From Escherichia phage 2H10: DNA of 46,288 nucleotides. Below are positions 36,666 through 46,288 of the stretch, one piece after another (position 1 is the stretch's first letter; each line of letters begins with the position of its first letter). A model generated the notes under the pieces. That model was given only the letters and a program-made list of their open reading frames with translations, had not been told where the DNA came from and searched no databases. The stretch lies in the sequence record NC_049950.1; one strand, given 5' to 3'. The position numbers and the translations under genes are program-made.

Positions 36666-37154
36666 ATGAGTCTTTTGAATGAAGTTCAGAAATTCATTGA
36701 AGCCCATCCGGGGTGTACTTCCGGAGACATTGCAGATGCTTTTGCAGGTTACTCACGGCAGCGCGTTCTGCAGTCAGCAAGCAAGTTACGTCAGAGTGGG
36801 CGTGTGGCTCACCGTTGTGAAGGAGATACACGCAGACATTTCCCGCGCCTGACTGAGAGAGCGCAGGAGCCGGAACCACAACCAGTTCGTGAAACCAGAC
36901 CTGTGCGCAATTTCTATGTCGGCACTAACGATCCCCGGGTAATTTTGTGCCTGACCCGCCAGGCTGAAGAACTGGAGTCCAGGGGCTTATACCGTCGTGC
37001 TGCAACTGTGTGGATGGCGGCATTCCGTGAAAGCCACTCCCAGTCAGAACGAAACAATTTTCTGGCGCGCCGTGAGCGGTGCTTACGGAAAAGCAGCAAG
37101 CGCGCTGTATCGGGTGATGAGTGGTATCTGTCAGGGAATTACGTGTGGGCTTAA
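36666..37154 (+). CDS. PerC-family transcriptional regulator-like protein
   Basis: 162-aa ORF containing EELESRGLYRRAATVWM, resembling the conserved PerC/Pch motif. Confidence 0.5.
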   Translation: MSLLNEVQKFIEAHPGCTSGDIADAFAGYSRQRVLQSASKLRQSGRVAHRCEGDTRRHFPRLTERAQEPEPQPVRETRPVRNFYVGTNDPRVILCLTRQAEELESRGLYRRAATVWMAAFRESHSQSERNNFLARRERCLRKSSKRAVSGDEWYLSGNYVWA

Positions 37155-37480
37155 TGACGACGTTAACTCAATGCCAGCAGCAGGTGCTGGATATGCTGAT
37201 TTCTTATCAGAAAGAACGTGGTTTCCCGCCAACCAATCAGGAGGTGGCAGCCATGCTGGGATACCGTTCGGTGAATGCAGCGGTGGAGCATCTTCGCGCA
37301 CTGGAGAAAAAAGGCGTCATCACGATAAAGCGTGGCGTGGCCCGGGGTATCACGCTTCATACCACAGTGAAGGACGACGACAGCGAGGCAGCCGGGATTA
37401 TCCGCGCACTGCTTGCCGGTGAGGAAAACGCCAGACTGCGTGCAGCCCACTGGTTACATGAGAGGGGCCTGAAAGTATGA
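37154..37480 (+). CDS. LexA DNA-binding-domain-only protein (no peptidase domain)
   Basis: 108-aa product MTTLTQCQQQVLDMLISYQKERGFPPTNQEVAAMLGYRSVNAAVEHLRALEKKGVITIKRGVARGITLH aligns by eye with the LexA N-terminal winged helix; TAATG overlap with upstream gene. Confidence 0.75.
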   Translation: MTTLTQCQQQVLDMLISYQKERGFPPTNQEVAAMLGYRSVNAAVEHLRALEKKGVITIKRGVARGITLHTTVKDDDSEAAGIIRALLAGEENARLRAAHWLHERGLKV

Positions 37481-37866
37481 AGCTGATCCTGCCTTTCCCG
37501 CCCAGCGTGAACACGTACTGGCGACACCCCAACAAAGGGGCGTTTGCTGGTAAGAGCCTGATAAGCGCGGCGGGGCGCAAATTCCAGAGCGCGGCGTGTG
37601 CAGCAATATTTGAGCAGTTACGTCGTCTGCCAAAACCAACGTCGGCACCTGCTTCAGTGGAGATCGTGTTGTTTCCTCCGGATAACCGGATCCGCGATCT
37701 GGACAACTATAACAAGGCGCTGTTTGACGCCCTGACCCACGCGGGTGTGTGGGAAGACGACAGTCAGGTGAAAAGAATGCTGGTGGAGTGGGGACCGGTT
37801 ATCCCGGAAGGGAAGGTCGAGATCACTATCAGTAAGTACGAGAAAACGGCGGGTGCAGCCGCCTGA
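37477..37866 (+). CDS. rusA: Holliday junction resolvase RusA
   Basis: 129-aa product MKLILPFPPSVNTYWRH...RDLDNYNKALFDALTHAGVWEDDSQV carries the RusA signature. Confidence 0.9.
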   Translation: MKLILPFPPSVNTYWRHPNKGAFAGKSLISAAGRKFQSAACAAIFEQLRRLPKPTSAPASVEIVLFPPDNRIRDLDNYNKALFDALTHAGVWEDDSQVKRMLVEWGPVIPEGKVEITISKYEKTAGAAA

Positions 37867-37885
37867 TTAAGAGGAGAAACGAAGT

Positions 37886-38683
37886 ATGAATAATCTGATG
37901 GTTATTGATGGTATTGAAGTTCGTCGTGATGCTTATGGGCGTTACAGCCTGAACGATCTGCACAGGGCTGCTGGTTCTCTGGATAAGCATAAGCCCGCAT
38001 TCTGGCTCCGCAATGAGCAAACTGAGCGTTTAATAAGCGAGTTGCAGATTTGCAACTCGGTCAATATAGAGCCAGTTAACGTTATTCGTGGCGGAAATAA
38101 CCAGGGGACGTATGTCTGCAAAGAACTGGTGTATGCCTATGCAATGTGGATCAGCCCGTCATTCCATCTGAAGGTGATCCGTACTTTCGACATGGTAACC
38201 AGCGCACCGGAAAAATTATCCGGACAGGCTGCTGACAAGATGCAGGCTGGTGTGATTCTGCTGGACTTTATGCGCCGGGAATTAAACCTGTCTAACTCTT
38301 CAGTGCTTGGTGCCTGCCAGAAACTCCAGGAGGCTGTTGGCTTACCGAATCTGGCACCGCGCTATGCCATTGATGCTCCTGCTGATGCACACGATGGCTC
38401 AAGTCGCCCCACGCTGTCTCTGAGTGCACTGCTGAGGCAGTATGGTATCCGCCTGACGGCTAATCAGGCATATCACCAGATGGTGAAGCTGGGGATCGTT
38501 GAACAACGCGAACGATACAGCCGTACCGCGATTAACAACATCAAAAAATTCTGGTCGCTGACGGCGAAAGGCTGCATGTTCGGCAAGAACATCACCAGTC
38601 CTGCAAATCCGCGCGAGACGCAGCCGCATTTCTTCGAATCCCGATTCCCTGAGCTGTTAAAGCTGCTCGATACCGTTCATTGA
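37886..38683 (+). CDS. KilA-N domain protein, putative antirepressor
   Basis: N-terminus MNNLMVIDGIEVRRDAYGRYSLNDLHRAAGSLDKHKPAFWLRNEQTERLISEL matches the KilA-N domain. Confidence 0.65.
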   Translation: MNNLMVIDGIEVRRDAYGRYSLNDLHRAAGSLDKHKPAFWLRNEQTERLISELQICNSVNIEPVNVIRGGNNQGTYVCKELVYAYAMWISPSFHLKVIRTFDMVTSAPEKLSGQAADKMQAGVILLDFMRRELNLSNSSVLGACQKLQEAVGLPNLAPRYAIDAPADAHDGSSRPTLSLSALLRQYGIRLTANQAYHQMVKLGIVEQRERYSRTAINNIKKFWSLTAKGCMFGKNITSPANPRETQPHFFESRFPELLKLLDTVH

Positions 38684-38684
38684 G

Positions 38685-39680
38685 GTGACCGTGAGAGCAC
38701 TACTGACCCCTGAAATTGCCCCGCGTATGGGGATTGTATTGTTCAGGCCAGGTTCAGAGCTGATGCCCCTGTTTATGCAGGGGCGTGTCCTGCTGGAGCC
38801 TGAGCCGGAACGTTATTCATCTTTCGCCAGTGGTGCCGTTCCGGCGGCATCACAACCGCTGGCGGATGATCCTGCCGTTCGGGCCGTGTTCCGCAATGAG
38901 GCAGTGATCCGTCGTGCTGGTGGCGTGGAATGTCTTGAAAGCTGGTTACTTCGTGAAAAGGGCTGTCAGTGGCCTCATTCCGACTGGCACAGCGAGAACA
39001 TGACCACAATGCGGCACGCTCCGGGAGCAATTCGTCTGTGCTGGCACTGCGATAACCAGCTGCGTGACCAGTTCACGGAACGGCTGGAATCAATGGCAAC
39101 GGATAACTGTGCCCGCTGGGTGTTGTCTGTCGTGCGTCGGGATCTCGGTTTTGATGACAGTCACGTTGTGACAATGCCGGAACTGTGCTGGTGGCTGGTT
39201 CGTAATGATTTGGCGGATGCCTTACCGGAAAGTGCAGCCCGTAAGGCACTGAGATTACCGAAGCCTGTTGTGCCATCTGTCACCCGGGAAAGTGACCTTG
39301 TGCCTTCGGTTCCTGCCACCAGCATCATCCAGGATAAAGCGAAAAAGGTGCTGGCGCTGAAAGTGGATCCGGAGTCGCCGGAGTCTTTTATGTTACGCCC
39401 CAAACGTCGCCGCTGGGTTAATGAAAAGTACACGCGCTGGGTTAAGACGCAGCCGTGCGCATGTTGTGGAAAGCCAGCTGATGATCCCCACCACCTGATA
39501 GGCCACGGTCAGGGTGGAATGGGTACAAAAGCGCATGATCTCTTTGTGTTGCCTTTGTGCAGAAAGCATCACGACGAGCTGCATGCGGATACCGTGACAT
39601 TTGAAGAGAAGTATGGCTCCCAACTGGAGCTGATATTTCGTTTTATCGATCGTGCGCTGGCAATTGGCGTACTGGCGTAA
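38685..39680 (+). CDS. DUF968-family protein (YdfU-like, HNH-like Cys/His C-terminus)
   Basis: 331-aa ORF with C-terminal CACCGKPADDPHHLIGHGQGGMGTKAHDLFVLPLCRKHHDELH; sits immediately upstream of Q as ydfU does in Qin. Confidence 0.65.
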   Translation: MTVRALLTPEIAPRMGIVLFRPGSELMPLFMQGRVLLEPEPERYSSFASGAVPAASQPLADDPAVRAVFRNEAVIRRAGGVECLESWLLREKGCQWPHSDWHSENMTTMRHAPGAIRLCWHCDNQLRDQFTERLESMATDNCARWVLSVVRRDLGFDDSHVVTMPELCWWLVRNDLADALPESAARKALRLPKPVVPSVTRESDLVPSVPATSIIQDKAKKVLALKVDPESPESFMLRPKRRRWVNEKYTRWVKTQPCACCGKPADDPHHLIGHGQGGMGTKAHDLFVLPLCRKHHDELHADTVTFEEKYGSQLELIFRFIDRALAIGVLA

Positions 39681-39693
39681 GTGGAGAACGAGC

Positions 39694-40446
39694 ATGAACC
39701 TTGAAGCCTTACCAAAATATTACTCCCCAAAATCTCCAAAATTGAGTGATGCCGCACCGGCGACAGGCTCAGGTGGTTTAACGATTACGGATGTGATGGC
39801 TGCGCAGGGGATGGTGCAGTCGAAAGCACCGCTTGGGTTTGCCTTATTCCTGGCAAAAGCTGGCGTTCAGGATCCTCAGTTTGCGATTGAAGGTCTGCTC
39901 AATTACGCGATGGCACTGGATAACCCGACATTGAACAAATTGAGTGAAGAAATCCGGTTACAGATCATCCCTTACCTTGTGAGTTTTGCCTTTGCTGATT
40001 ATTCCAGGTCTGCGGCAAGTAAGGCTCGCTGTGAGCCTTGTGCTGGTACTGGATTTCATAATGTATTGCGCGAAGTGGTGAAATACTCCAGAAGCGGGGA
40101 GTCTGTTATCAAGGAAGAGTGGGTGAAGGAACTATGTCAGCATTGTCATGGTAAGGGAGAAGTCAGCACAGCGTGCAGAGGGTGTAAGGGTAAAGGTATT
40201 GTCCTGGATGAAAAAAGGACCCGGCTTCATGGCGCGCCTGTTTATAAGATTTGTGGGCGTTGCAATGGAAACCGGTTTAGTCGTTTACCAACGACACTGG
40301 CGCGGTGTCATGTCCAGAAGCTGGTACCAGACCTGACTGATTATCAGTGGTACAAAGGATATGCAGATGTCATTGATAAACTGGTTACAAAGTGCTGGCA
40401 GGAAGAAGCATATGCTGAGGTGCAATTAAGAAAAGTGACGAGATAA
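39694..40446 (+). CDS. Q: late-gene antiterminator Q (phage 21/82-type)
   Basis: Product from ATG 39694 MNLEALPKYYSPKSPKLSDAAPATGSGGLTITDVMAAQGMVQSKAPLGF... with CxxC...CxxC zinc motifs; followed by pR-prime/tR-prime. Confidence 0.8.
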   Translation: MNLEALPKYYSPKSPKLSDAAPATGSGGLTITDVMAAQGMVQSKAPLGFALFLAKAGVQDPQFAIEGLLNYAMALDNPTLNKLSEEIRLQIIPYLVSFAFADYSRSAASKARCEPCAGTGFHNVLREVVKYSRSGESVIKEEWVKELCQHCHGKGEVSTACRGCKGKGIVLDEKRTRLHGAPVYKICGRCNGNRFSRLPTTLARCHVQKLVPDLTDYQWYKGYADVIDKLVTKCWQEEAYAEVQLRKVTR

Positions 40447-40477
40447 ATGATTTTCGCCGAAGATGGCGACGTAATGC

Positions 40478-40506
40478 TTGCATTTTTCAAAAAATATGGA
40501 TAAAAT
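40478..40506 (+). promoter_or_regulatory. late promoter pR-prime (Q-utilisation region)
   Basis: TTGCAT, 17-nt spacer, TAAAAT about 30 nt after the Q stop, followed about 45 nt later by an intrinsic terminator. Confidence 0.7.
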
Positions 40507-40551
40507 TTTTTCAACGATGGGCTTTATATACCCGACGTTAAGAAAAAGTAG

Positions 40552-40580
40552 AAAACCCGCTGATGAGCGGGTTTTTGTGC
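40552..40580 (+). terminator. tR-prime intrinsic terminator
   Basis: aaacccgc-tgatga-gcgggttt hairpin with T-rich tail directly seen. Confidence 0.75.
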
Positions 40581-40861
40581 TTTAAATAGGGTAATAGAGA
40601 TGTTGAATCTCATTCCGGGATTCATGTTTGTTTACTTATTATTTATCGGGTGACTTTGCCTGATGTTTAAAATGTTTTCTTCCAGTACTATGTCCCTAGA
40701 TACAATGAGTCTGCATATTACATTATTAGCAGAGCTATTACGGTCAAAGTACAGCATAAGCTTTTAAAGCCAATCAACCAGTCATCAAGACAGACGGGGT
40801 TATTCATGAAAACTCTCCATGTTTGATTCGATGGGGCCTGAAATTAAAGCTTTAATATAGC

Positions 40862-41074
40862 TCATGAAAGGTAAACATTGGCAGCTGAAGGGCCACGCAG
40901 ACCATTTATCCGGCAAAATTCCACGCGTAATCCGGTGGTAATTTCTTCTGCATCGCGGAGATTGAGCGCTGAAACATGAAGCTGGACATCGATACGACCA
41001 TCGGATGGGGTGATAAGACCCTTGCCGCTTTTGCCGTCAAAGGTTTTGACAATTCCTGTCATTTTACGGGACAA
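40862..41074 (-). CDS. cspF: cold-shock-domain protein, CspF/CspH-like
   Basis: 70-aa product [70 protein letters not shown]. Confidence 0.8.
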
Positions 41075-41374
41075 AAAAATTCCTTAATACTGATAACTGG
41101 GCGCACTATACACACGTTCCTGAAGAAAGCTATAGTTTTTTGATGGGGTTGAAGATGGCTGGATGTCTAAAATAAACATTGCTTCATATGTTCAACTATG
41201 CGTTAATGATTGCGTCGGTTTGAAGAACAGACGATATACGAAGTAGTTTACTAAAGCAGTTCTCATTTCAGGTGTTATTCACTTATTCCTTCTTTGAGTC
41301 TCTCCAATTAAGTACGAAGTCGTTTCTGTTATACAAGCCATTTATGCCGAAAGGCTCAAGTTAAGGAATGTAGA

Positions 41375-41590
41375 ATGTCAAATAAAATGACTGGTTTAGT
41401 AAAATGGTTTAACGCTGATAAAGGTTTTGGCTTTATTTCTCCTGTTGATGGTAGTAAAGATGTGTTTGTGCATTTTTCTGCGATTCAGAATGATAATTTT
41501 CGAACCTTATTTGAAGGTCAAAAGGTTACCTTCTCTGTAGAGAGTGGTGCTAAAGGTCCTGCAGCAGCAAATGTCATAATTACTGATTAA
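41375..41590 (+). CDS. cspB: cold-shock protein CspB-like
   Basis: 71-aa product [67 protein letters not shown] with RNP1/RNP2 motifs. Confidence 0.88.
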
Positions 41591-41871
41591 AATTCATAGT
41601 TTGTCTGTATACGATAACGAAGAAGGCTGATGCCTGAGTGGAGATACAGACAGAGTGGTGAATATTGGATCTCTTTAATAAATAGTAAGGAGGTCCAATA
41701 CATGAAACAATGGCCAGCATATTTGGCAATAACTTAATCAGGAAAAGTATGCTAACCATTGTGGTGAAGTGCAGGTTTGCTGCATGAATAGTTTTACAGC
41801 AGAAGCTAACTGCTGGCATAGCAAAACAAAGTGCGTAAGTGGATGACTCCCACAAAAAGCACCACAATATT

Positions 41872-41896
41872 AAACCCGCTCAGGCGGGTTTTTTAT
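41872..41896 (+). terminator. rho-independent terminator downstream of cspB
   Basis: acccgc-tcag-gcgggt hairpin followed by ttttttatt. Confidence 0.65.
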
Positions 41897-41953
41897 TATC
41901 TGCTTTAAATATGTTATTAAAATATAAAAAATACTTGTTGCGAATAAAATCAA

Positions 41954-42124
41954 TCACGCTACAGCTTTAAGATTTGTCTGGAATACTTTGTTGCAATGAG
42001 GGCAGATCAAAAGGGCACCTTTTTGTACTCTTGAAAAACTGTGTTCTGACTCTTGGGTGCAGTTTGGGCAGGAACATTTAACGAGATAATTACGGCGTGA
42101 TTTTGAGTCTTTACGTTCTGACAT
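41954..42124 (-). CDS. small zinc-ribbon protein (hypothetical)
   Basis: Track ORF 41954-42175; internal ATG 42124 with AGGA upstream gives a 56-aa product with two CxxC pairs (CSCPNC ... CPHC). Confidence 0.4.
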   Translation of the reverse strand: MSERKDSKSRRNYLVKCSCPNCTQESEHSFSRVQKGALLICPHCNKVFQTNLKAVA

Positions 42125-42342
42125 AGGCTTTTCCTGTATAAATGGCCGTATACAGTACACTAAATATGAAAACATATCTCGTATTATTATTTAATACATG
42201 ATTTTCTTTTAAAATAATTACCCACATTTTTAATGTGTCTGTTTTTTAGCGCCGTTGAGAACAATGTTTGCTATAAAAACTAACCCATAGACTCCGATCT
42301 TTTCAAACATATTGCACCATCTGTGTACATCGGGGCGAGGAT

Positions 42343-42558
42343 ATGAAATCAATGGATAAGTTAACAACAGGTATCGCCTATGGCACATCGGCTGGTAATG
42401 CTGGTTTCTGGGCATTGCAGTTACTCGATAAAGTAACTCCGTCACAGTGGGCTGCAATCGGTGTGCTGGGTAGTCTGGTTTTTGGCCTGCTGACGTATCT
42501 GACAAACCTTTATTTCAAGATTAAAGAAGACAGGCGTAAGGTTGCGAGAAGAGAGTAA
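42343..42558 (+). CDS. S: class II holin (phage 21 S-type pinholin) with dual-start motif
   Basis: 71-aa product [66 protein letters not shown]; Met1-Lys-Ser-Met4 dual start. Confidence 0.88.
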
Positions 42559-42562
42559 TCCA

Positions 42563-43114
42563 ATGACACAAGACTATGAACTGGTTGTGAAAGGAGTCCG
42601 CAATTTTGAGAATAAAGTGGCGGTAACTGTAGCCTTACGGGACAAAAAACGCTTTGACGGTGAAATTTTTGACCTGGACATCTCGCTGGACCGTGTTGAA
42701 GGTGCCGCGCTTGAGTTTTATGAGGCAGCAGCGAGAAGGAGCATCAGACAGGTCTTCCTGGATGTTGCTGCCGGGTTATGTGAAGGGGATGAGCTGTCGC
42801 CGGAAAAGCGCCCCGTAATTTTAGAGGCGCAGAATGTGTGGATAACCTACAAAGGAAAGCTACCGGGAAGAATTACTGGTTCTCTGAAGACGCCACCGAC
42901 GGCATTGCGGTCAGAAAAAGATGATATTGAATCGCCCATTGAAAAACTGGAGGGCAGCGTCGCTGATCTGAATAAAAAATTGTCGGTGCTGATTCCTTCT
43001 GAAGATGAAAAAAAACGCCGCGATGAGCAGTTTGCGGCGTTTTACGATTATTGCATTGAAGTTACTCGCAGGAATTTTGTGAAGATTTTTGAGGAGGGTA
43101 AATCTCTTCAGTAA
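42563..43114 (+). CDS. hypothetical protein inserted between holin and endolysin
   Basis: Track ORF 42542-43114; ATG 42563 preferred (GAGAG 8 nt upstream); 183 aa, charged, no motif recognised. Confidence 0.5.
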   Translation: MTQDYELVVKGVRNFENKVAVTVALRDKKRFDGEIFDLDISLDRVEGAALEFYEAAARRSIRQVFLDVAAGLCEGDELSPEKRPVILEAQNVWITYKGKLPGRITGSLKTPPTALRSEKDDIESPIEKLEGSVADLNKKLSVLIPSEDEKKRRDEQFAAFYDYCIEVTRRNFVKIFEEGKSLQ

Positions 43115-43322
43115 GCTTAATGGCGGACGCTGCAATTAATTCAGGAAGGTCCGCAAGGTCATCTGTCAGTGGATATGATGAAAAATCGGCGGCAGTTCTG
43201 TTAAGAAGCGCTTTAACTAATTCCTTTTCCTTCTCCGGCAACAAGTTGATTAGAGCTACGACTGCTTGCCTGAGTGCGATTAAATCAGCAAAAGTTTGTT
43301 TTGGTAGATTTGTGTAATCCAT
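43062..43322 (-). CDS. hypothetical small acidic protein, convergent with and overlapping the 3-prime end of the preceding gene
   Basis: Track ORF 43062-43328; ATG 43322 with AGAGG upstream; 86 aa MDYTNLPKQTFADLIALRQAVVALINLLPEKEKELVKALL... Confidence 0.4.
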   Translation of the reverse strand: MDYTNLPKQTFADLIALRQAVVALINLLPEKEKELVKALLNRTAADFSSYPLTDDLADLPELIAASAIKLTEEIYPPQKSSQNSCE

Positions 43323-43435
43323 AGTCACCTCTGTGTTTATCAGATTGACATCCTCCTCCCGCCAGTGCCCATCACTGGTGAGGTAAGATTTAACATATCC
43401 GGGGATTTGAAGCCGATAAATCCTGATAAATATCC

Positions 43436-44463
<1,028 letters not shown>

Positions 44464-44826
44464 ATTAATATTAAATCGGATTATTTTTAGCGCTGAATGT
44501 GAAATTTAAATAAAAAGGACTCTTCCATGAGTCAAAATTCTTGAAATCTTAAGGGTAAGATAAAAGGTCATTAGACAGAATGACACGTTTTATTAATAAA
44601 TAAAGCTATTGTTTCATTCGTGTGTTTTTCTTTACAAAAGTAATCCTTGCTATGGTTGGTTAATCATGCGTTAATGGTGTTCTGGTTTGTTACAAAATTA
44701 TCTGAAGCAGTCATTGTTATAATTTTATTATTTGTACCTCTTGAGATTTCCTTGTTGGTTTTTCTCTCTGATATTTTTTTTCGGACCATTCTGCCCAAGG
44801 GCTAACTTCTTCAAAAGGTAATAATG

Positions 44827-45039
44827 ATGTCTAACAAAATGACTGGTTTAGTGAAATGGTTTAACCCTGAAAAAGGTTTTGGTTTCATCACGCCGAAAGA
44901 TGGTAGCAAAGATGTGTTTGTCCATTTCTCAGCTATTCAGAGCAACGATTTCAAAACGTTAACTGAGAATCAGGAAGTCGAATTTGGTATTGAGAACGGA
45001 CCTAAAGGCCCCGCGGCTGTTCATGTAGTGGCACTTTGA
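44827..45039 (+). CDS. cspI: cold-shock protein CspI-like
   Basis: 70-aa product [70 protein letters not shown]. Confidence 0.88.
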
Positions 45040-45244
45040 GGTAGAAAATATTACAAACCATATTCACTTTAGATGCCCGTGTTGCCATGGTTCTCAGTAT
45101 AGAACATCATCTTTTGATGTTTCTGACAGGAATCCTTTCGGGGCAAAATGTATCTTTTGTAAATCAATGATGATTACATTTGATAATATTTCACAATACT
45201 TAAATGTTAGCCGTCTGTCGTTAGATTTAAGAAAGTGAAAATGA

Positions 45245-45267
45245 AGGCTCCTTCGGGAGCTTTTTTG
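45245..45267 (+). terminator. rho-independent terminator downstream of cspI
   Basis: ggctcc-ttcg-ggagc hairpin followed by tttttt. Confidence 0.6.
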
Positions 45268-45310
45268 CTTAGTGTCTAGTCGATGGATACTCACATATTA
45301 CGGTAACATT

Positions 45311-45541
45311 ATGAAAAAAATAATAGTTTTTTTTAACTCTGAACCAGCAATGGTAGTGCCAGTGATGACCGGAGTTAACACCATCATGCGTGAATATCCA
45401 AATGGCGAAACAACACACCTCACTGTAATGGCTGCAGGGTTTCCATCTCTGACCGGAGATCATAAAGTCATTTATGTAGCAGCGGATCGACATGTAACTT
45501 CAGAAGAAATTCTGGAAGCAGCAATGAGACTCTTGAATTGA
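45311..45541 (+). CDS. hypothetical small protein
   Basis: Track ORF 45272-45541 (GTG); ATG 45311 gives 76 aa MKKIIVFFNSEPAMVVPVMTGVNTIMREYPNGETTHL...; no good ribosome-binding site, so uncertain. Confidence 0.4.
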   Translation: MKKIIVFFNSEPAMVVPVMTGVNTIMREYPNGETTHLTVMAAGFPSLTGDHKVIYVAADRHVTSEEILEAAMRLLN

Positions 45542-45713
45542 TTTGATTCTAATGCATTGATAATAAATGATAATCATCTTTATCTGTTTGTGTGAAATTT
45601 AGACCGTCGTATGTTGATTATTGCGATGTTTCATCTTATCTTTTATACGTTTGCTCCATATAATTGACACTACTGTGTACCAGGAAAGTCATAACAGACT
45701 AAAAGAGGAAATG

Positions 45714-45887
45714 ATGAACATTGAAGAGTTAAAAACAAAAACAGAAGCAGATATTTCTGAATATATAACAAAAAAAATCATTGAGCTTAAGAAAAAGACC
45801 GGGAAAGAAGTTACCAGTATCCAGTTTACTGCACGGGAAAAAATGACTGGTCTTGAAAGCTACGATATCAAGATTGATTTAATCTAG
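45714..45887 (+). CDS. gnsB: GnsA/GnsB-family small protein
   Basis: 57-aa product MNIEELKTKTEADISEYITKKIIELKKKTGKEVTSIQFTAREKMTGLESYDIKIDLI; AGAGGA upstream. Confidence 0.8.
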   Translation: MNIEELKTKTEADISEYITKKIIELKKKTGKEVTSIQFTAREKMTGLESYDIKIDLI

Positions 45888-46182
45888 TATGTTTATAGTA
45901 TTAGCATCAATTTCTCATCAGATGCTATTCAACAATACAAATTACCCATAAACCTCGTTTTTACGGGGTTTTGTTATATTTAAACATTACCGAATAGATA
46001 TAAATCTCGATTGTCGATGGTATTGGTTGTGTGACAATACCTAGTCTTTCCGGTATGCCTGAAGAGAATACAAACGACAGATTATGTAAGGGAAACGCGC
46101 TGAAACTTTCACTCTTTCATGCTGAGTGATTTGACGTTATATTTTTAGCCGCAAGTGAAGAGCAAACGCATGGAGCGACAAA

Positions 46183-46288
46183 ATGCATAAAGATCAATAC
46201 ACTGATGCCCCCTCCCAGGAGCAGGTTCGTGTAAAAACTATGCTTAATAGCACCATTTCGATGGGTTACCCGGATGTTGTAATTGCAT
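46183..46288 (+). CDS. 5-prime part of an ORF running off the window end (hypothetical)
   Basis: ATG 46183 preceded by GGAG; open frame [35 protein letters not shown]... to the last base. Confidence 0.4.

What the first reader, a model, noticed from the sequence alone, without database searches (positions are those of the whole stretch)
42563..43322. Convergent, 3-prime-overlapping gene pair inserted between holin and endolysin
In phage-21-type lysis cassettes S, R and Rz are contiguous. Here about 880 bp are inserted between the pinholin and the SAR endolysin, encoding a 183-aa protein on the plus strand and an 86-aa acidic protein on the minus strand whose 3-prime ends overlap by about 50 nt. 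Convergent overlapping genes inside a late operon imply antisense interference, and the position implies expression timed with lysis. No function is recognisable.
Basis: partly seen in the sequence, partly recalled or inferred. Interest (0 to 1): 0.5.

Follow-up and report, generated by a model that had tools for sequence, protein, structure and literature searches.

The report
Antisense cargo gene inside prophage lysis cassette
Between the holin and endolysin genes of a Qin-like E. coli prophage lie the common, poorly understood gene ydfR and a small backward-facing gene that looks like a self-contained unit in a reusable slot; both genes are real and already catalogued, but nobody knows what they do.

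Summary
A 183-aa ORF (42563-43114, +) and an 86-aa acidic ORF (43322-43062, -) lie in the 877 bp between a phage-21-type holin and an endolysin, and their 3' ends overlap by 53 nt.

The plus ORF is recognisable: residues 1-112 are YdfR/DUF1327. That gene sits between S and R in K-12 Qin and many other E. coli lambdoid prophages, and K-12 YdfR was recently reported to bind RNase E.

Only 42899-43408 (510 bp) is a variable cassette, present in about 5% of complete E. coli genomes.

The minus gene is real. Homologues at 38-57% identity keep its length, start and ribosome-binding site. It looks like an autonomous antisense unit, with a conserved promoter-like -35/-10, a leader hairpin, and a GC hairpin plus T8 terminator lying inside the ydfR tail.

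Another phage keeps the same leader and terminator around a different antisense cargo, and a third keeps the leader. The overlap is therefore most simply ydfR reading on into the cargo.

In Salmonella Gifsy-like prophages the homologous unit sits after Rz, with the same hairpin and a 59-nt overlap.

Function is unknown. This is a moron-like cargo slot: interest is moderate to low, and expression is untested.

The parts
42343..42558 (+). S21-type class II holin (essQ-like pinholin), with the dual start MKSM
   Evidence: PF04971, E 7e-34. Annotated essQ in an identical genome. Translation.
42563..43114 (+). 183-aa YdfR-family ORF: a DUF1327 core followed by a helical tail
   Evidence: PF07041 on aa 1-112, 144.9 bits. 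Full-length match to phrog_2091. AF2 model: three strands and a helix in the N-domain, a disordered linker at 74-125, and C-terminal helices 126-143 and 147-181 at low confidence.
42563..42898 (+). ydfR core shared with short (114-116 aa) ydfR genes. PGAP annotates only this part, as 'YdfR family, missing C-terminus'.
   Evidence: 95.5% identical to PhiR40_1 ydfR up to this point. PGAP annotation. 85% identical to K-12 YdfR aa 1-74.
42899..43408 (.). 510-bp variable cassette. It replaces 51 bp of short-ydfR phages and holds the ydfR tail, the antisense gene, its leader and the -10-like element.
   Evidence: blastn of PhiR40_1 against the window: homology resumes at 43409.
43008..43042 (-). GC-rich palindromic hairpin (AAACGCCGC / GCGGCGTTT) followed by T8 on the minus strand. 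It is the likely intrinsic terminator of the antisense gene. On the plus strand it encodes KKRRDEQFAAF of the ydfR tail.
   Evidence: Fold energy -10 to -15 kcal/mol. Eight of ten pairs are kept in all 8 sequences from 3 lineages, with one G-C to A-U compensatory change; 88.8% of cells pair, against 35-65% when the partner is slid. The hairpin is also kept next to a different cargo in L007. Coordinates.
43062..43322 (-). 86-aa acidic (pI 4.57) protein, modelled as three helices (moderate confidence). RefSeq WP_001306174.1 'hypothetical protein'; phrog_2572.
   Evidence: Homologues at 38-57% identity. The mirror frame is not conserved.
43062..43114 (.). 53-nt overlap of the two 3' ends (59 nt in the distant lineages)
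43326..43331 (-). Ribosome-binding site GAGGTG, 3 nt upstream of ATG 43322
43340..43351 (-). Mini-ORF ATG TCA ATC TGA in the leader, preceded by GGAGGAGG. Significance unknown.
   Evidence: Also present in L003.
43362..43378 (-). Hairpin in the 5' leader (CCAGTG atggg CACTGG)
   Evidence: The same leader hairpin lies upstream of other cargos in L004 and L007.
43392..43419 (-). Promoter-like element: TTATCG (43419-43414), a 16-nt spacer, then TATGTT (43397-43392). Only 7 of 12 positions match the sigma-70 consensus.
   Evidence: Salmonella units have the same geometry (TTATCT, 16 nt, TATTGT). Among E. coli copies 4 substitutions fall in the spacer and none in the hexamers. The generic promoter scan did not report it.
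43413..43431 (-). Direct repeats ATTTATCAGG / ATTTATCGG abutting the R start codon. They occur once in the window.
   Evidence: 1 match, 0.01 expected. Invariant in all lineages. Also present in phages without cargo, so they could instead serve R translation.
43436..43969 (+). Endolysin (rrrQ-like), with an N-terminal Ala-rich SAR-like segment and no obvious ribosome-binding site
   Evidence: PF00959. Annotation. Sequence.
43966..44463 (+). Rz-like spanin (DUF2514), with the embedded Rz1 lipoprotein gene at 44159-44413
   Evidence: PF10721. Rz1 translation with the LTSC lipobox. rzoQ in K-12.

Best explanation
This is a Qin / phage-21-type lysis cassette: pinholin, ydfR, SAR endolysin, Rz/Rz1. 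Its ydfR gene has been extended by, and interlocked with, an antisense 'moron-like' cargo unit.

The unit, read on the minus strand, has these parts:
- a weak but conserved promoter-like -35/-10 next to the R start codon;
- a leader of about 60 nt with a hairpin;
- a ribosome-binding site;
- an 86-aa acidic protein modelled as three helices;
- a GC hairpin plus T8 terminator.

The promoter/leader and the terminator form a fixed expression slot in which different cargo ORFs are exchanged between phages. The ydfR frame runs through the terminator hairpin and then into the antisense of whatever cargo is present. In this window that gives a 183-aa protein and a 53-nt overlap.

Inferred mechanism:
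1. Host RNA polymerase transcribes the small gene when the Q-dependent late operon is silent (prophage state or early infection), and stops at the hairpin.
2. After induction, terminator-resistant late transcription crosses the unit head-on to reach R and Rz. This shuts the small gene off by transcriptional interference and sense-antisense RNA pairing.
3. Ribosomes translating the ydfR tail keep the hairpin melted on the late mRNA.

The small protein most likely acts by binding another protein, as a lysogen-expressed accessory factor. Its target is unknown.

What is shown: the gene anatomy, the homologies, conservation of the hairpin, and the slot structure. What is inferred: promoter activity, termination, timing of expression, and protein function.
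For: - Identity of the flanking genes and of the YdfR core.
- Indel boundaries at 42899-43408 relative to the short-ydfR phage PhiR40_1.
- K-12 lacks the unit. Its 103-aa YdfR is a truncation of a 243-aa form that does carry it.
- The small gene is a real protein family.
- The terminator hairpin is conserved across three lineages with a compensatory change, even though it lies in poorly conserved coding sequence.
- Promoter-like hexamers are invariant at a fixed spacing while the spacer varies, in both E. coli and Salmonella.
- The same leader precedes a different 104-aa cargo in Stx2 phage 86. The same leader plus the same hairpin/T8 flank a different cargo of about 0.75 kb in a Stx1a phage. 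Homology with the window breaks only about 8 nt past the small ORF's stop and just after the leader hairpin.
- The homologous unit is transplanted to a different late-operon site in Salmonella Gifsy-like prophages (after Rz, before the terminase genes).
- The cassette is carried by isolated, propagating phages (PhiR63_1, PhiR5_1, PhiR12_x), so it is compatible with normal lysis.
- G+C is slightly lower than in the flanks (0.39-0.46 against 0.48-0.55).
Against: - No transcription or translation data were available.
- The promoter-like element matches only 7 of 12 consensus positions, and the generic scan missed it.
- The ATTTATC repeats and the -35 lie in a flank that is also conserved in phages without any cargo. 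They could therefore serve R translation, since R lacks a ribosome-binding site, rather than antisense transcription.
- The T-tract after the hairpin is strong only in the E. coli type and is poor in the L100 type.
- Support for the hairpin rests on essentially one compensatory event. The shuffle controls are not significant (55 of 500 shuffles reach the covariation score).
- In all three lineages a late-strand ORF reads through the hairpin in the same frame and stops at the equivalent place. This may mean the C-terminal peptide itself is selected.
- No fold or family gives a function.
Confidence: 0.55

Rival explanations
1. A co-adapted two-protein pair. The late-expressed protein carries a conserved C-terminal helix of about 40 aa (E-K-K-R-R-D-E ... 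R-N-F-x-K ... K-S-x-Q). The constitutively expressed acidic protein binds and neutralises it. This would be an effector/antagonist arrangement like the pore-forming colicin operons, where the immunity gene sits on the opposite strand with its own promoter between the toxin gene and the lysis gene. The effector part might act through the YdfR N-domain's reported contact with RNase E.
For: - In every lineage the small gene is convergent with, and overlaps by 53 or 59 nt, a late-strand ORF ending in the same ~40-aa segment. The N-terminal parts of these ORFs are unrelated: YdfR forms of 183/211 aa, forms of 243/144 aa, and a free-standing 73-aa gene that overlaps the end of the Rz gene by 8 nt.
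- The pairwise tail similarity has E 2e-4.
- The small protein is consistently acidic.
- Colicin operon layout: PMC9517006.
- YdfR-RNase E binding: PMC13232886.
Against: - The shared ~40 aa coincide exactly with the small gene's terminator, 3' UTR and last codons. Nucleotide-level constraint explains the similarity without any protein function.
- In L007 the same ydfR tail reads on into a different cargo for about 100 codons, and in phage 86 the tail is unrelated.
- The tail is not consistently basic: pI is 5.0 in E. coli and about 9 in Salmonella.
- There are no PADLOC, toxin or immunity family hits.
- Physical overlap makes co-inheritance trivial.
Confidence: 0.2
2. An RNA-level safety catch on lysis. 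The main product is the antisense transcript, or the act of antisense transcription starting right at the R start codon. This would block or destabilise read-through into R and Rz from un-antiterminated transcription in lysogens and tune lysis timing. The encoded protein would be secondary.
For: - The promoter-like element fires away from the R start, head-on against late transcription.
- The leader and promoter region is kept while the cargo is exchanged.
- The palindromic hairpin could also stop non-antiterminated plus-strand transcripts upstream of R.
- From established knowledge, the known precedents are lambda paQ and oop, P22 sar, and type I toxin-antitoxin loci with convergent 3' overlaps.
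Against: - The protein is conserved in length, start and hydrophobic pattern down to 38% identity, so it is itself under selection.
- Short-ydfR phages and K-12 do without the unit.
- In Salmonella the unit lies after Rz, not before an endolysin gene.
- No known RNA family matches, and the whole-transcript fold is unremarkable (z = -1.1).
Confidence: 0.12
3. The minus-strand ORF is an unexpressed relic or an annotation artefact, and its conservation reflects only recent spread of the prophage segment.
For: - Most copies are at least 90% identical and restricted to Escherichia and Shigella.
- pN/pS is only moderately below 1, and it is no lower than in the mirror frame.
- No family or fold is assigned.
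Against: - Full-length homologues at 38-57% identity occur in other Enterobacteriaceae prophages, with a conserved start and ribosome-binding site, while the mirror frame is broken.
- Flanking promoter-like and terminator elements are conserved.
- Of 85 copies found in the loci fetched here, 15 have a broken or shifted partner ORF or small ORF.
Confidence: 0.08

Closest known systems
Qin cryptic prophage lysis cassette of E. coli K-12 (essQ-ydfR-rrrQ-rzpQ/rzoQ, flanked by cspB, cspF and cspI)
   Same: Same gene order and orthologous genes: cspF, cspB, ynfU, an S21-type holin, ydfR (85% identical over aa 1-74), endolysin, a DUF2514 Rz with embedded Rz1, then cspI.
   Different: K-12 ydfR is 103 aa and its stop overlaps the rrrQ start. 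The tail, the antisense gene and its leader are all missing. K-12 YdfR is a truncation of a 243-aa form that does carry an antisense partner.
Lambda 'morons' such as bor, an antisense gene next to Rz that has its own promoter and is expressed in lysogens (Hendrix/Juhala concept; from established knowledge)
   Same: A small gene embedded in the late region next to the lysis genes, in antisense orientation, with its own promoter-like and terminator elements. It is present or absent among otherwise homologous phages, and the cargo is exchangeable.
   Different: The terminator and the 3' end lie inside the coding sequence of the neighbouring late gene. The product is a cytoplasmic acidic helical protein, not a lipoprotein. 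Expression in lysogens is not shown.
Pore-forming colicin operons, where the immunity gene lies on the opposite strand with its own promoter, between the colicin gene and the lysis gene (PMC9517006)
   Same: An inducible sense gene, then a convergent small gene with its own promoter, then a downstream lysis gene that needs read-through across the antisense gene.
   Different: No sequence or fold relationship. Colicin immunity proteins of that class are membrane proteins, whereas this product is soluble and acidic. No toxicity of the sense partner is known.
Type I toxin-antitoxin loci with convergent, 3'-overlapping transcripts and a shared terminator (par of pAD1, txpA/RatA, bsrG/SR4; from established knowledge)
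   Same: Convergent units whose 3' ends overlap around a palindromic terminator hairpin.
   Different: Both partners here encode soluble proteins of 70-180 aa. There is no hydrophobic toxin peptide, and no evidence of RNA-RNA regulation.
PHROG families 2091 and 2572, and RefSeq WP_001306174.1
   Same: Both ORFs match these families over their full length. RefSeq already annotates the minus ORF.
   Different: The catalogues give no function and do not record the slot architecture or the hairpin.

Membership tests
YdfR family / Pfam DUF1327 (PF07041) | Match to PF07041 above the gathering score | tested here: met
   144.9 bits against a cutoff of 25, on aa 1-112.
YdfR family / Pfam DUF1327 (PF07041) | Position immediately after an S21-type holin and before the endolysin, as in Qin | tested here: met
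YdfR family / Pfam DUF1327 (PF07041) | Binding to the N-terminal half of RNase E and co-purification of RNA (reported for K-12 YdfR, aa 1-72) | not testable with these tools
   PMC13232886. The window protein is 85% identical over aa 1-74.
Phage-21-type lysis cassette | Class II holin of the S21 family with a dual start | tested here: met
   PF04971, E 7e-34. The protein begins MKSM.
Phage-21-type lysis cassette | Lysozyme-family endolysin with an N-terminal signal-anchor-release-like segment, followed by Rz with an embedded Rz1 lipoprotein | tested here: met
   PF00959 and PF10721. The N-terminus reads [18 protein letters not shown]. Rz1 has an LTSC lipobox. SAR behaviour itself is inferred.
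Phage-21-type lysis cassette | S and R adjacent to each other | tested here: not met
   877 bp separate them.
Moron (autonomous transcription unit inside a phage late operon) | Own promoter | tested here: inconclusive
   A conserved TTATC(G/T), 16 nt, TAT(G/T)(T/G)T geometry across lineages, with a variable spacer. It matches only 7 of 12 consensus positions, and the generic scan did not call it.
Moron (autonomous transcription unit inside a phage late operon) | Own terminator | tested here: met
   A hairpin of -10 to -15 kcal/mol plus T8, about 20 nt after the stop codon. It is kept in 3 lineages and next to another cargo. In silico only.
Moron (autonomous transcription unit inside a phage late operon) | Present or absent, or exchanged, between otherwise homologous phages | tested here: met
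   PhiR40_1 and K-12 lack it. Phage 86 and Stx1a phages carry other cargos.
Moron (autonomous transcription unit inside a phage late operon) | Expressed from the repressed prophage | not testable with these tools
   No expression data were found.
Type I toxin-antitoxin (convergent 3' overlap) | Small hydrophobic membrane toxin peptide | tested here: not met
   Both products are hydrophilic (GRAVY -0.1 and -0.44) with no transmembrane segment.
Known anti-phage defence systems (PADLOC-DB) | Match to any PADLOC model | tested here: not met
   No hit at E <= 0.1 for either protein or for the alternative cargos.
DUF1823 (PF08853), the label used for the minus ORF in some phage records | Match above the gathering score | tested here: not met
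   13-15 bits against a cutoff of 25. No hit at all in the distant homologues.
Anti-CRISPR AcrIIC4 | Significant sequence or fold similarity | tested here: not met

The most novel reading that the evidence does not exclude
The ydfR-R junction of S21-type lysis cassettes is a dedicated antisense expression slot whose cargos are expressed in lysogens. The 86-aa acidic helical protein is one such cargo and would be a new small inhibitor, for example of a phage-defence protein, a counter-defence protein or an RNase E-linked target. Firing of the slot's promoter against the late operon would double as a safety catch on endolysin expression.
Probability: 0.15. Interest if true: 0.6.

Novelty: new member of a known kind. 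Interest (0 to 1): 0.33.

Why it matters
- **Annotation.** It clarifies a region that genome annotation handles badly. PGAP calls the plus ORF a pseudogene and leaves about 1 kb blank in related prophages.
- **K-12 YdfR.** The K-12 YdfR protein now being studied as an RNase E partner is a truncated remnant of longer forms.
- **A candidate cargo site.** It points to a recurrent, exchangeable antisense cargo site inside the lysis cassette of E. coli, Shigella and Salmonella lambdoid prophages, including Stx phages. If the cargos are expressed in lysogens they are candidates for host-benefit or phage-competition functions.
- **An unusual terminator.** A terminator that lies inside a translated gene on the other strand is a neat case of two-strand coding constraint.
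- **Limits.** None of this overturns current understanding of lysis or of morons.

Tried and rejected
- **Codon-substitution tests** on close copies and on the Salmonella pair. These were uninformative for choosing the strand, because the mirror frame shares wobble positions. Distant homologues resolved it instead.
- **Function by homology.** Pfam, NCBIfam, PHROGs and PADLOC gave only 'unknown function'.
- **Function by sequence against PDB.** Only sub-threshold AcrIIC4 and designed proteins.
- **The 'DUF1823' and ABATE labels** were rejected as sub-threshold.
- **A 975-aa TPR-CHAT protein** hit by the full HMMER scan (E 1.6e-10, 8 repeats) was judged a repeat or compositional resemblance, at most a hint of a TPR-like helical hairpin.
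- **CII-type activator sites.** The idea that the ATTTATC repeats are such sites, making this a paQ-like promoter, was dropped. TTATC-N5-TTATC and TTGC-N6-TTGC occur at chance frequency in the window.
- **Rfam** gave nothing above noise.
- **Fold of the whole antisense transcript** was not unusual.
- **Literature searches** for ydfR, DUF1327 and the RefSeq accession found no functional study beyond the RNase E screen.
- **tblastn of the Salmonella 73-aa protein** against the phage records found nothing.
- **Collinearity.** The window is collinear with the 100%-match genome only over 37154-46288.
Full report
**1. What is there**

The window's right end is the late region of a Qin-like lambdoid prophage of E. 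coli. The gene order is:
- cspF (-), cspB (+), ynfU (-);
- an S21-type holin at 42343-42558 (PF04971, E 7e-34, dual start MKSM);
- a 183-aa ORF at 42563-43114 (+);
- an 86-aa ORF at 43322-43062 (-);
- a lysozyme-family endolysin at 43436-43969;
- a DUF2514 Rz at 43966-44463, with an embedded Rz1 lipoprotein gene at 44159-44413;
- cspI.

The two ORFs converge and share 43062-43114, which is 53 nt. The holin-endolysin gap is 877 bp. The minus-strand protein is acidic, with pI 4.57.

**2. The plus ORF is a known gene family**

Residues 1-112 are YdfR/DUF1327, at 144.9 bits against a cutoff of 25. In K-12 Qin, ydfR sits in exactly this place, in the order essQ-ydfR-rrrQ. At least part of 42300-43500 (holin, ydfR, cassette and the start of R) matches in 5149 of 5426 complete E. 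coli genomes.

The family has a constant core and variable tails. Length classes are 103, 114-116 (the commonest), 176, 183, 211, 243, 268 and 296 aa. PGAP annotates only 42563-42898 here, as 'YdfR family, missing C-terminus'.

The only functional report I found is a 2026 screen. In it, K-12 YdfR residues 1-72 bound the N-terminal half of RNase E in a two-hybrid assay and in co-purification. The protein also brought down RNA, and overexpression changed few transcripts (PMC13232886). The window protein is 85% identical to K-12 YdfR over residues 1-74. K-12 YdfR itself aligns to residues 1-99 of a 243-aa form, so it is a truncated remnant.

**3. Only 510 bp is a variable cassette**

The short-ydfR phage PhiR40_1 aligns to the window over 42563-42898 (95.5%) and again from 43409 (95%). 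Window 42899-43408 replaces 51 bp of that phage. The cassette holds the ydfR tail (aa 113-183), the minus gene, its leader and a -10-like element. About 294 of 5426 genomes (5%) carry the minus-gene region. So do isolated phages: PhiR63_1 at 99% identity, plus PhiR5_1 and the PhiR12 series.

**4. The minus ORF is a real gene**

It matches phrog_2572 over its full length (E 1e-53), and RefSeq annotates it as WP_001306174.1.

Among close copies, substitutions favour third codon positions. However, a mirror ORF on the plus strand (43120-43317) shares those wobble positions, so pN/pS cannot separate the two frames (0.44 against 0.28).

Distant relatives decide it. An exhaustive HMMER scan of 1.84 billion representatives and a profile search found 89-93-aa homologues at 38-57% identity, in Salmonella prophages and in gut metagenome contigs. 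They keep the start, the ribosome-binding site, the length and the hydrophobic pattern. In them the mirror frame has an internal stop or no start codon.

The family is narrow. Only one of 185,579 species-representative genomes has it, and that genome is E. coli.

AlphaFold2, run on the single sequence at pLDDT 72, gives three helices (8-27, 30-48, 56-74) and a disordered C-terminal tail. No sequence or fold search gave a function.

**5. Anatomy of the antisense unit (minus strand)**

- Direct repeats ATTTATCAGG/ATTTATCGG at 43431-43413, abutting the R start codon.
- TTATCG at 43419-43414, a 16-nt spacer, then TATGTT at 43397-43392.
- A leader hairpin, CCAGTG...CACTGG, at 43378-43362.
- A three-codon mini-ORF at 43351-43340.
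- A GAGGTG ribosome-binding site at 43331-43326, ATG at 43322 and the stop codon at 43064-43062.
- About 20 nt further on, the hairpin AAACGCCGC/GCGGCGTTT followed by T8, spanning 43042-43008.

Two observations support the promoter-like element. First, the Salmonella units keep the same geometry (TTATCT, 16 nt, TATTGT) while the spacer sequence differs. Second, among E. coli copies four substitutions fall in the spacer and none in the hexamers or repeats.

It is nevertheless weak by consensus, at 7 of 12 positions, and the generic scan did not report it. The repeats also persist in phages without cargo. They could therefore serve translation of R, which has no obvious ribosome-binding site.

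**6. The hairpin**

On the plus strand the hairpin encodes KKRRDEQFAAF of the ydfR tail. It is the best-conserved block in an alignment of eight sequences from three lineages. Eight of ten pairs hold in every sequence. One pair changes from G-C to A-U on both sides; at the protein level RR...AA becomes RHH...GVA. Overall 88.8% of cells pair, against 35-65% when the partner is slid. This rests on essentially one compensatory event, and the shuffle control is not significant, so it is suggestive rather than proven. The T-tract is strong in the E. coli type and weaker in the other lineages.

**7. A fixed slot with exchangeable cargo**

Stx2 phage 86 has the same leader, including the repeats, the -10 and the hairpin. 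There it sits in front of a different 104-aa antisense gene (phrog_1853), next to a YdfR with an unrelated tail.

A Stx1a phage (L007) and strain FORC_043 (L104) have the same leader and the same hairpin plus T8. Between them lies a different antisense segment of about 0.75 kb. Homology with the window ends about 8 nt past the small ORF's stop on one side, and just after the leader hairpin on the other. In those loci the ydfR frame reads on for about 100 codons into the antisense of the cargo.

So in the window the last 19 codons of the 183-aa ORF, and hence the 53-nt overlap, are most simply ydfR reading into whatever cargo occupies the slot.

**8. The unit elsewhere**

In Salmonella Gifsy-like prophages the order is Q, two holins, a GH19 endolysin, Rz, a 73-aa ORF overlapping the end of the Rz gene by 8 nt, the convergent 93-aa homologue (59-nt overlap), and then the terminase genes. 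Other contigs pair the homologue with a 243-aa YdfR, or with a 144-aa protein downstream of Q.

Across the three lineages the late-strand partners share only their last ~40 residues. That segment is exactly the small gene's hairpin, 3' UTR and final codons. Of 85 copies found in the loci fetched here, 70 have the convergent partner with a 53- or 59-nt overlap; the remaining 15 have a broken or shifted partner ORF or small ORF.

**9. Interpretation**

The best-supported reading (confidence about 0.55) is an antisense, moron-like cargo unit in a conserved expression slot, interlocked with ydfR. Timing and silencing by head-on late transcription are inferred from orientation and from established knowledge of Q-dependent late operons.

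The main rival (about 0.2) is a co-adapted effector/antagonist pair. It is suggested by the constant reading of a late ORF through the hairpin in one frame, and by the resemblance in layout to pore-forming colicin operons (PMC9517006). The cargo exchange and the fact that the shared peptide coincides with nucleotide-level elements argue against it.

An RNA-level safety catch on R (about 0.12) and a non-expressed relic (about 0.08) remain possible.

**10. Verdict**

Both genes are already catalogued but uncharacterised. The slot architecture and the terminator embedded in coding sequence do not seem to have been described, but they fit the known concept of morons in lambdoid late regions. I rate this a new member of a known kind, with interest about 0.33.

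Noticed in passing
L007 2100-2960 and L104 325-1380 (Stx1a phage Stx1_14040; E. coli FORC_043): The same antisense slot holds a different cargo of about 0.75 kb. It contains a 233-aa minus-strand ORF and a 52-aa ORF beginning (M)IVDY, with no Pfam, PHROG or PADLOC hit. PGAP leaves about 1 kb unannotated there. The 263-aa 'ydfR' ORF annotated in the phage record is probably read-in.
   Followed up: partly
L004 4028-4475 (Stx2-converting phage 86): A 104-aa antisense gene (phrog_1853) sits behind the same leader as the window's 86-aa gene. It lies next to a 268-aa YdfR with an unrelated tail and does not overlap it.
   Followed up: partly
L005 6055-6366 (K-12 ydfR) compared with L100 443-1174: K-12 YdfR (103 aa) equals residues 1-99 of a 243-aa YdfR form (83% identity) plus four codons read from the AT-rich motif in front of rrrQ. 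The protein used in the RNase E interaction study is therefore a deletion remnant that lacks the C-terminal 144 aa and the antisense partner.
   Followed up: yes
window 43340-43351 (-): A three-codon mini-ORF (ATG TCA ATC TGA), preceded by GGAGGAGG, lies in the leader of the 86-aa gene. It is also present in PhiR5_1. Its meaning is unknown.
   Followed up: no
window 43409-43438: The endolysin start codon has no recognisable ribosome-binding site. It is preceded by the AT-rich direct repeat GATAAATCCTGATAAATATCC, which is conserved even in phages without antisense cargo. This may be an AU-rich translation enhancer for R, an alternative reading of the '-35/repeat' element.
   Followed up: partly
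window 43120-43317 (+): A 65-aa mirror ORF lies antisense to the 86-aa gene and shares its wobble positions. It gives an even lower pN/pS (0.28) than the real gene. This is a reminder that substitution ratios alone can mislead for antisense frames.
   Followed up: yes
window 40862-45039: Three cold-shock paralogues bracket the lysis cassette: cspF-like at 40862-41074 (-), cspB-like at 41375-41590 (+) and cspI-like at 44824-45039 (+). The zinc-ribbon gene ynfU also lies here, within 41954-42175 (-). This matches K-12 Qin.
   Followed up: no
P0139 (975-aa TPR-CHAT protein from the representative library): This protein matches the 86-aa protein in 8 repeated stretches (E 1.6e-10, 36% identity; the DLADL..AI...A.NLT.E motif). 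It is probably a repeat or compositional resemblance, but it hints that the small protein may form a TPR-like helical hairpin.
   Followed up: no
L095 9393-10316: In the Salmonella Gifsy-like prophage, a 307-aa gene with no Pfam hit lies on the opposite strand between the Q antiterminator and the holins. This is another antisense cargo in the late region.
   Followed up: no
window 1-37153: Only 37154-46288 is collinear (98.5%) with the genome that matches the finding region at 100%. The early and integrase parts of the prophage match at 88-96% in patches. The prophage is therefore mosaic relative to that strain.
   Followed up: partly
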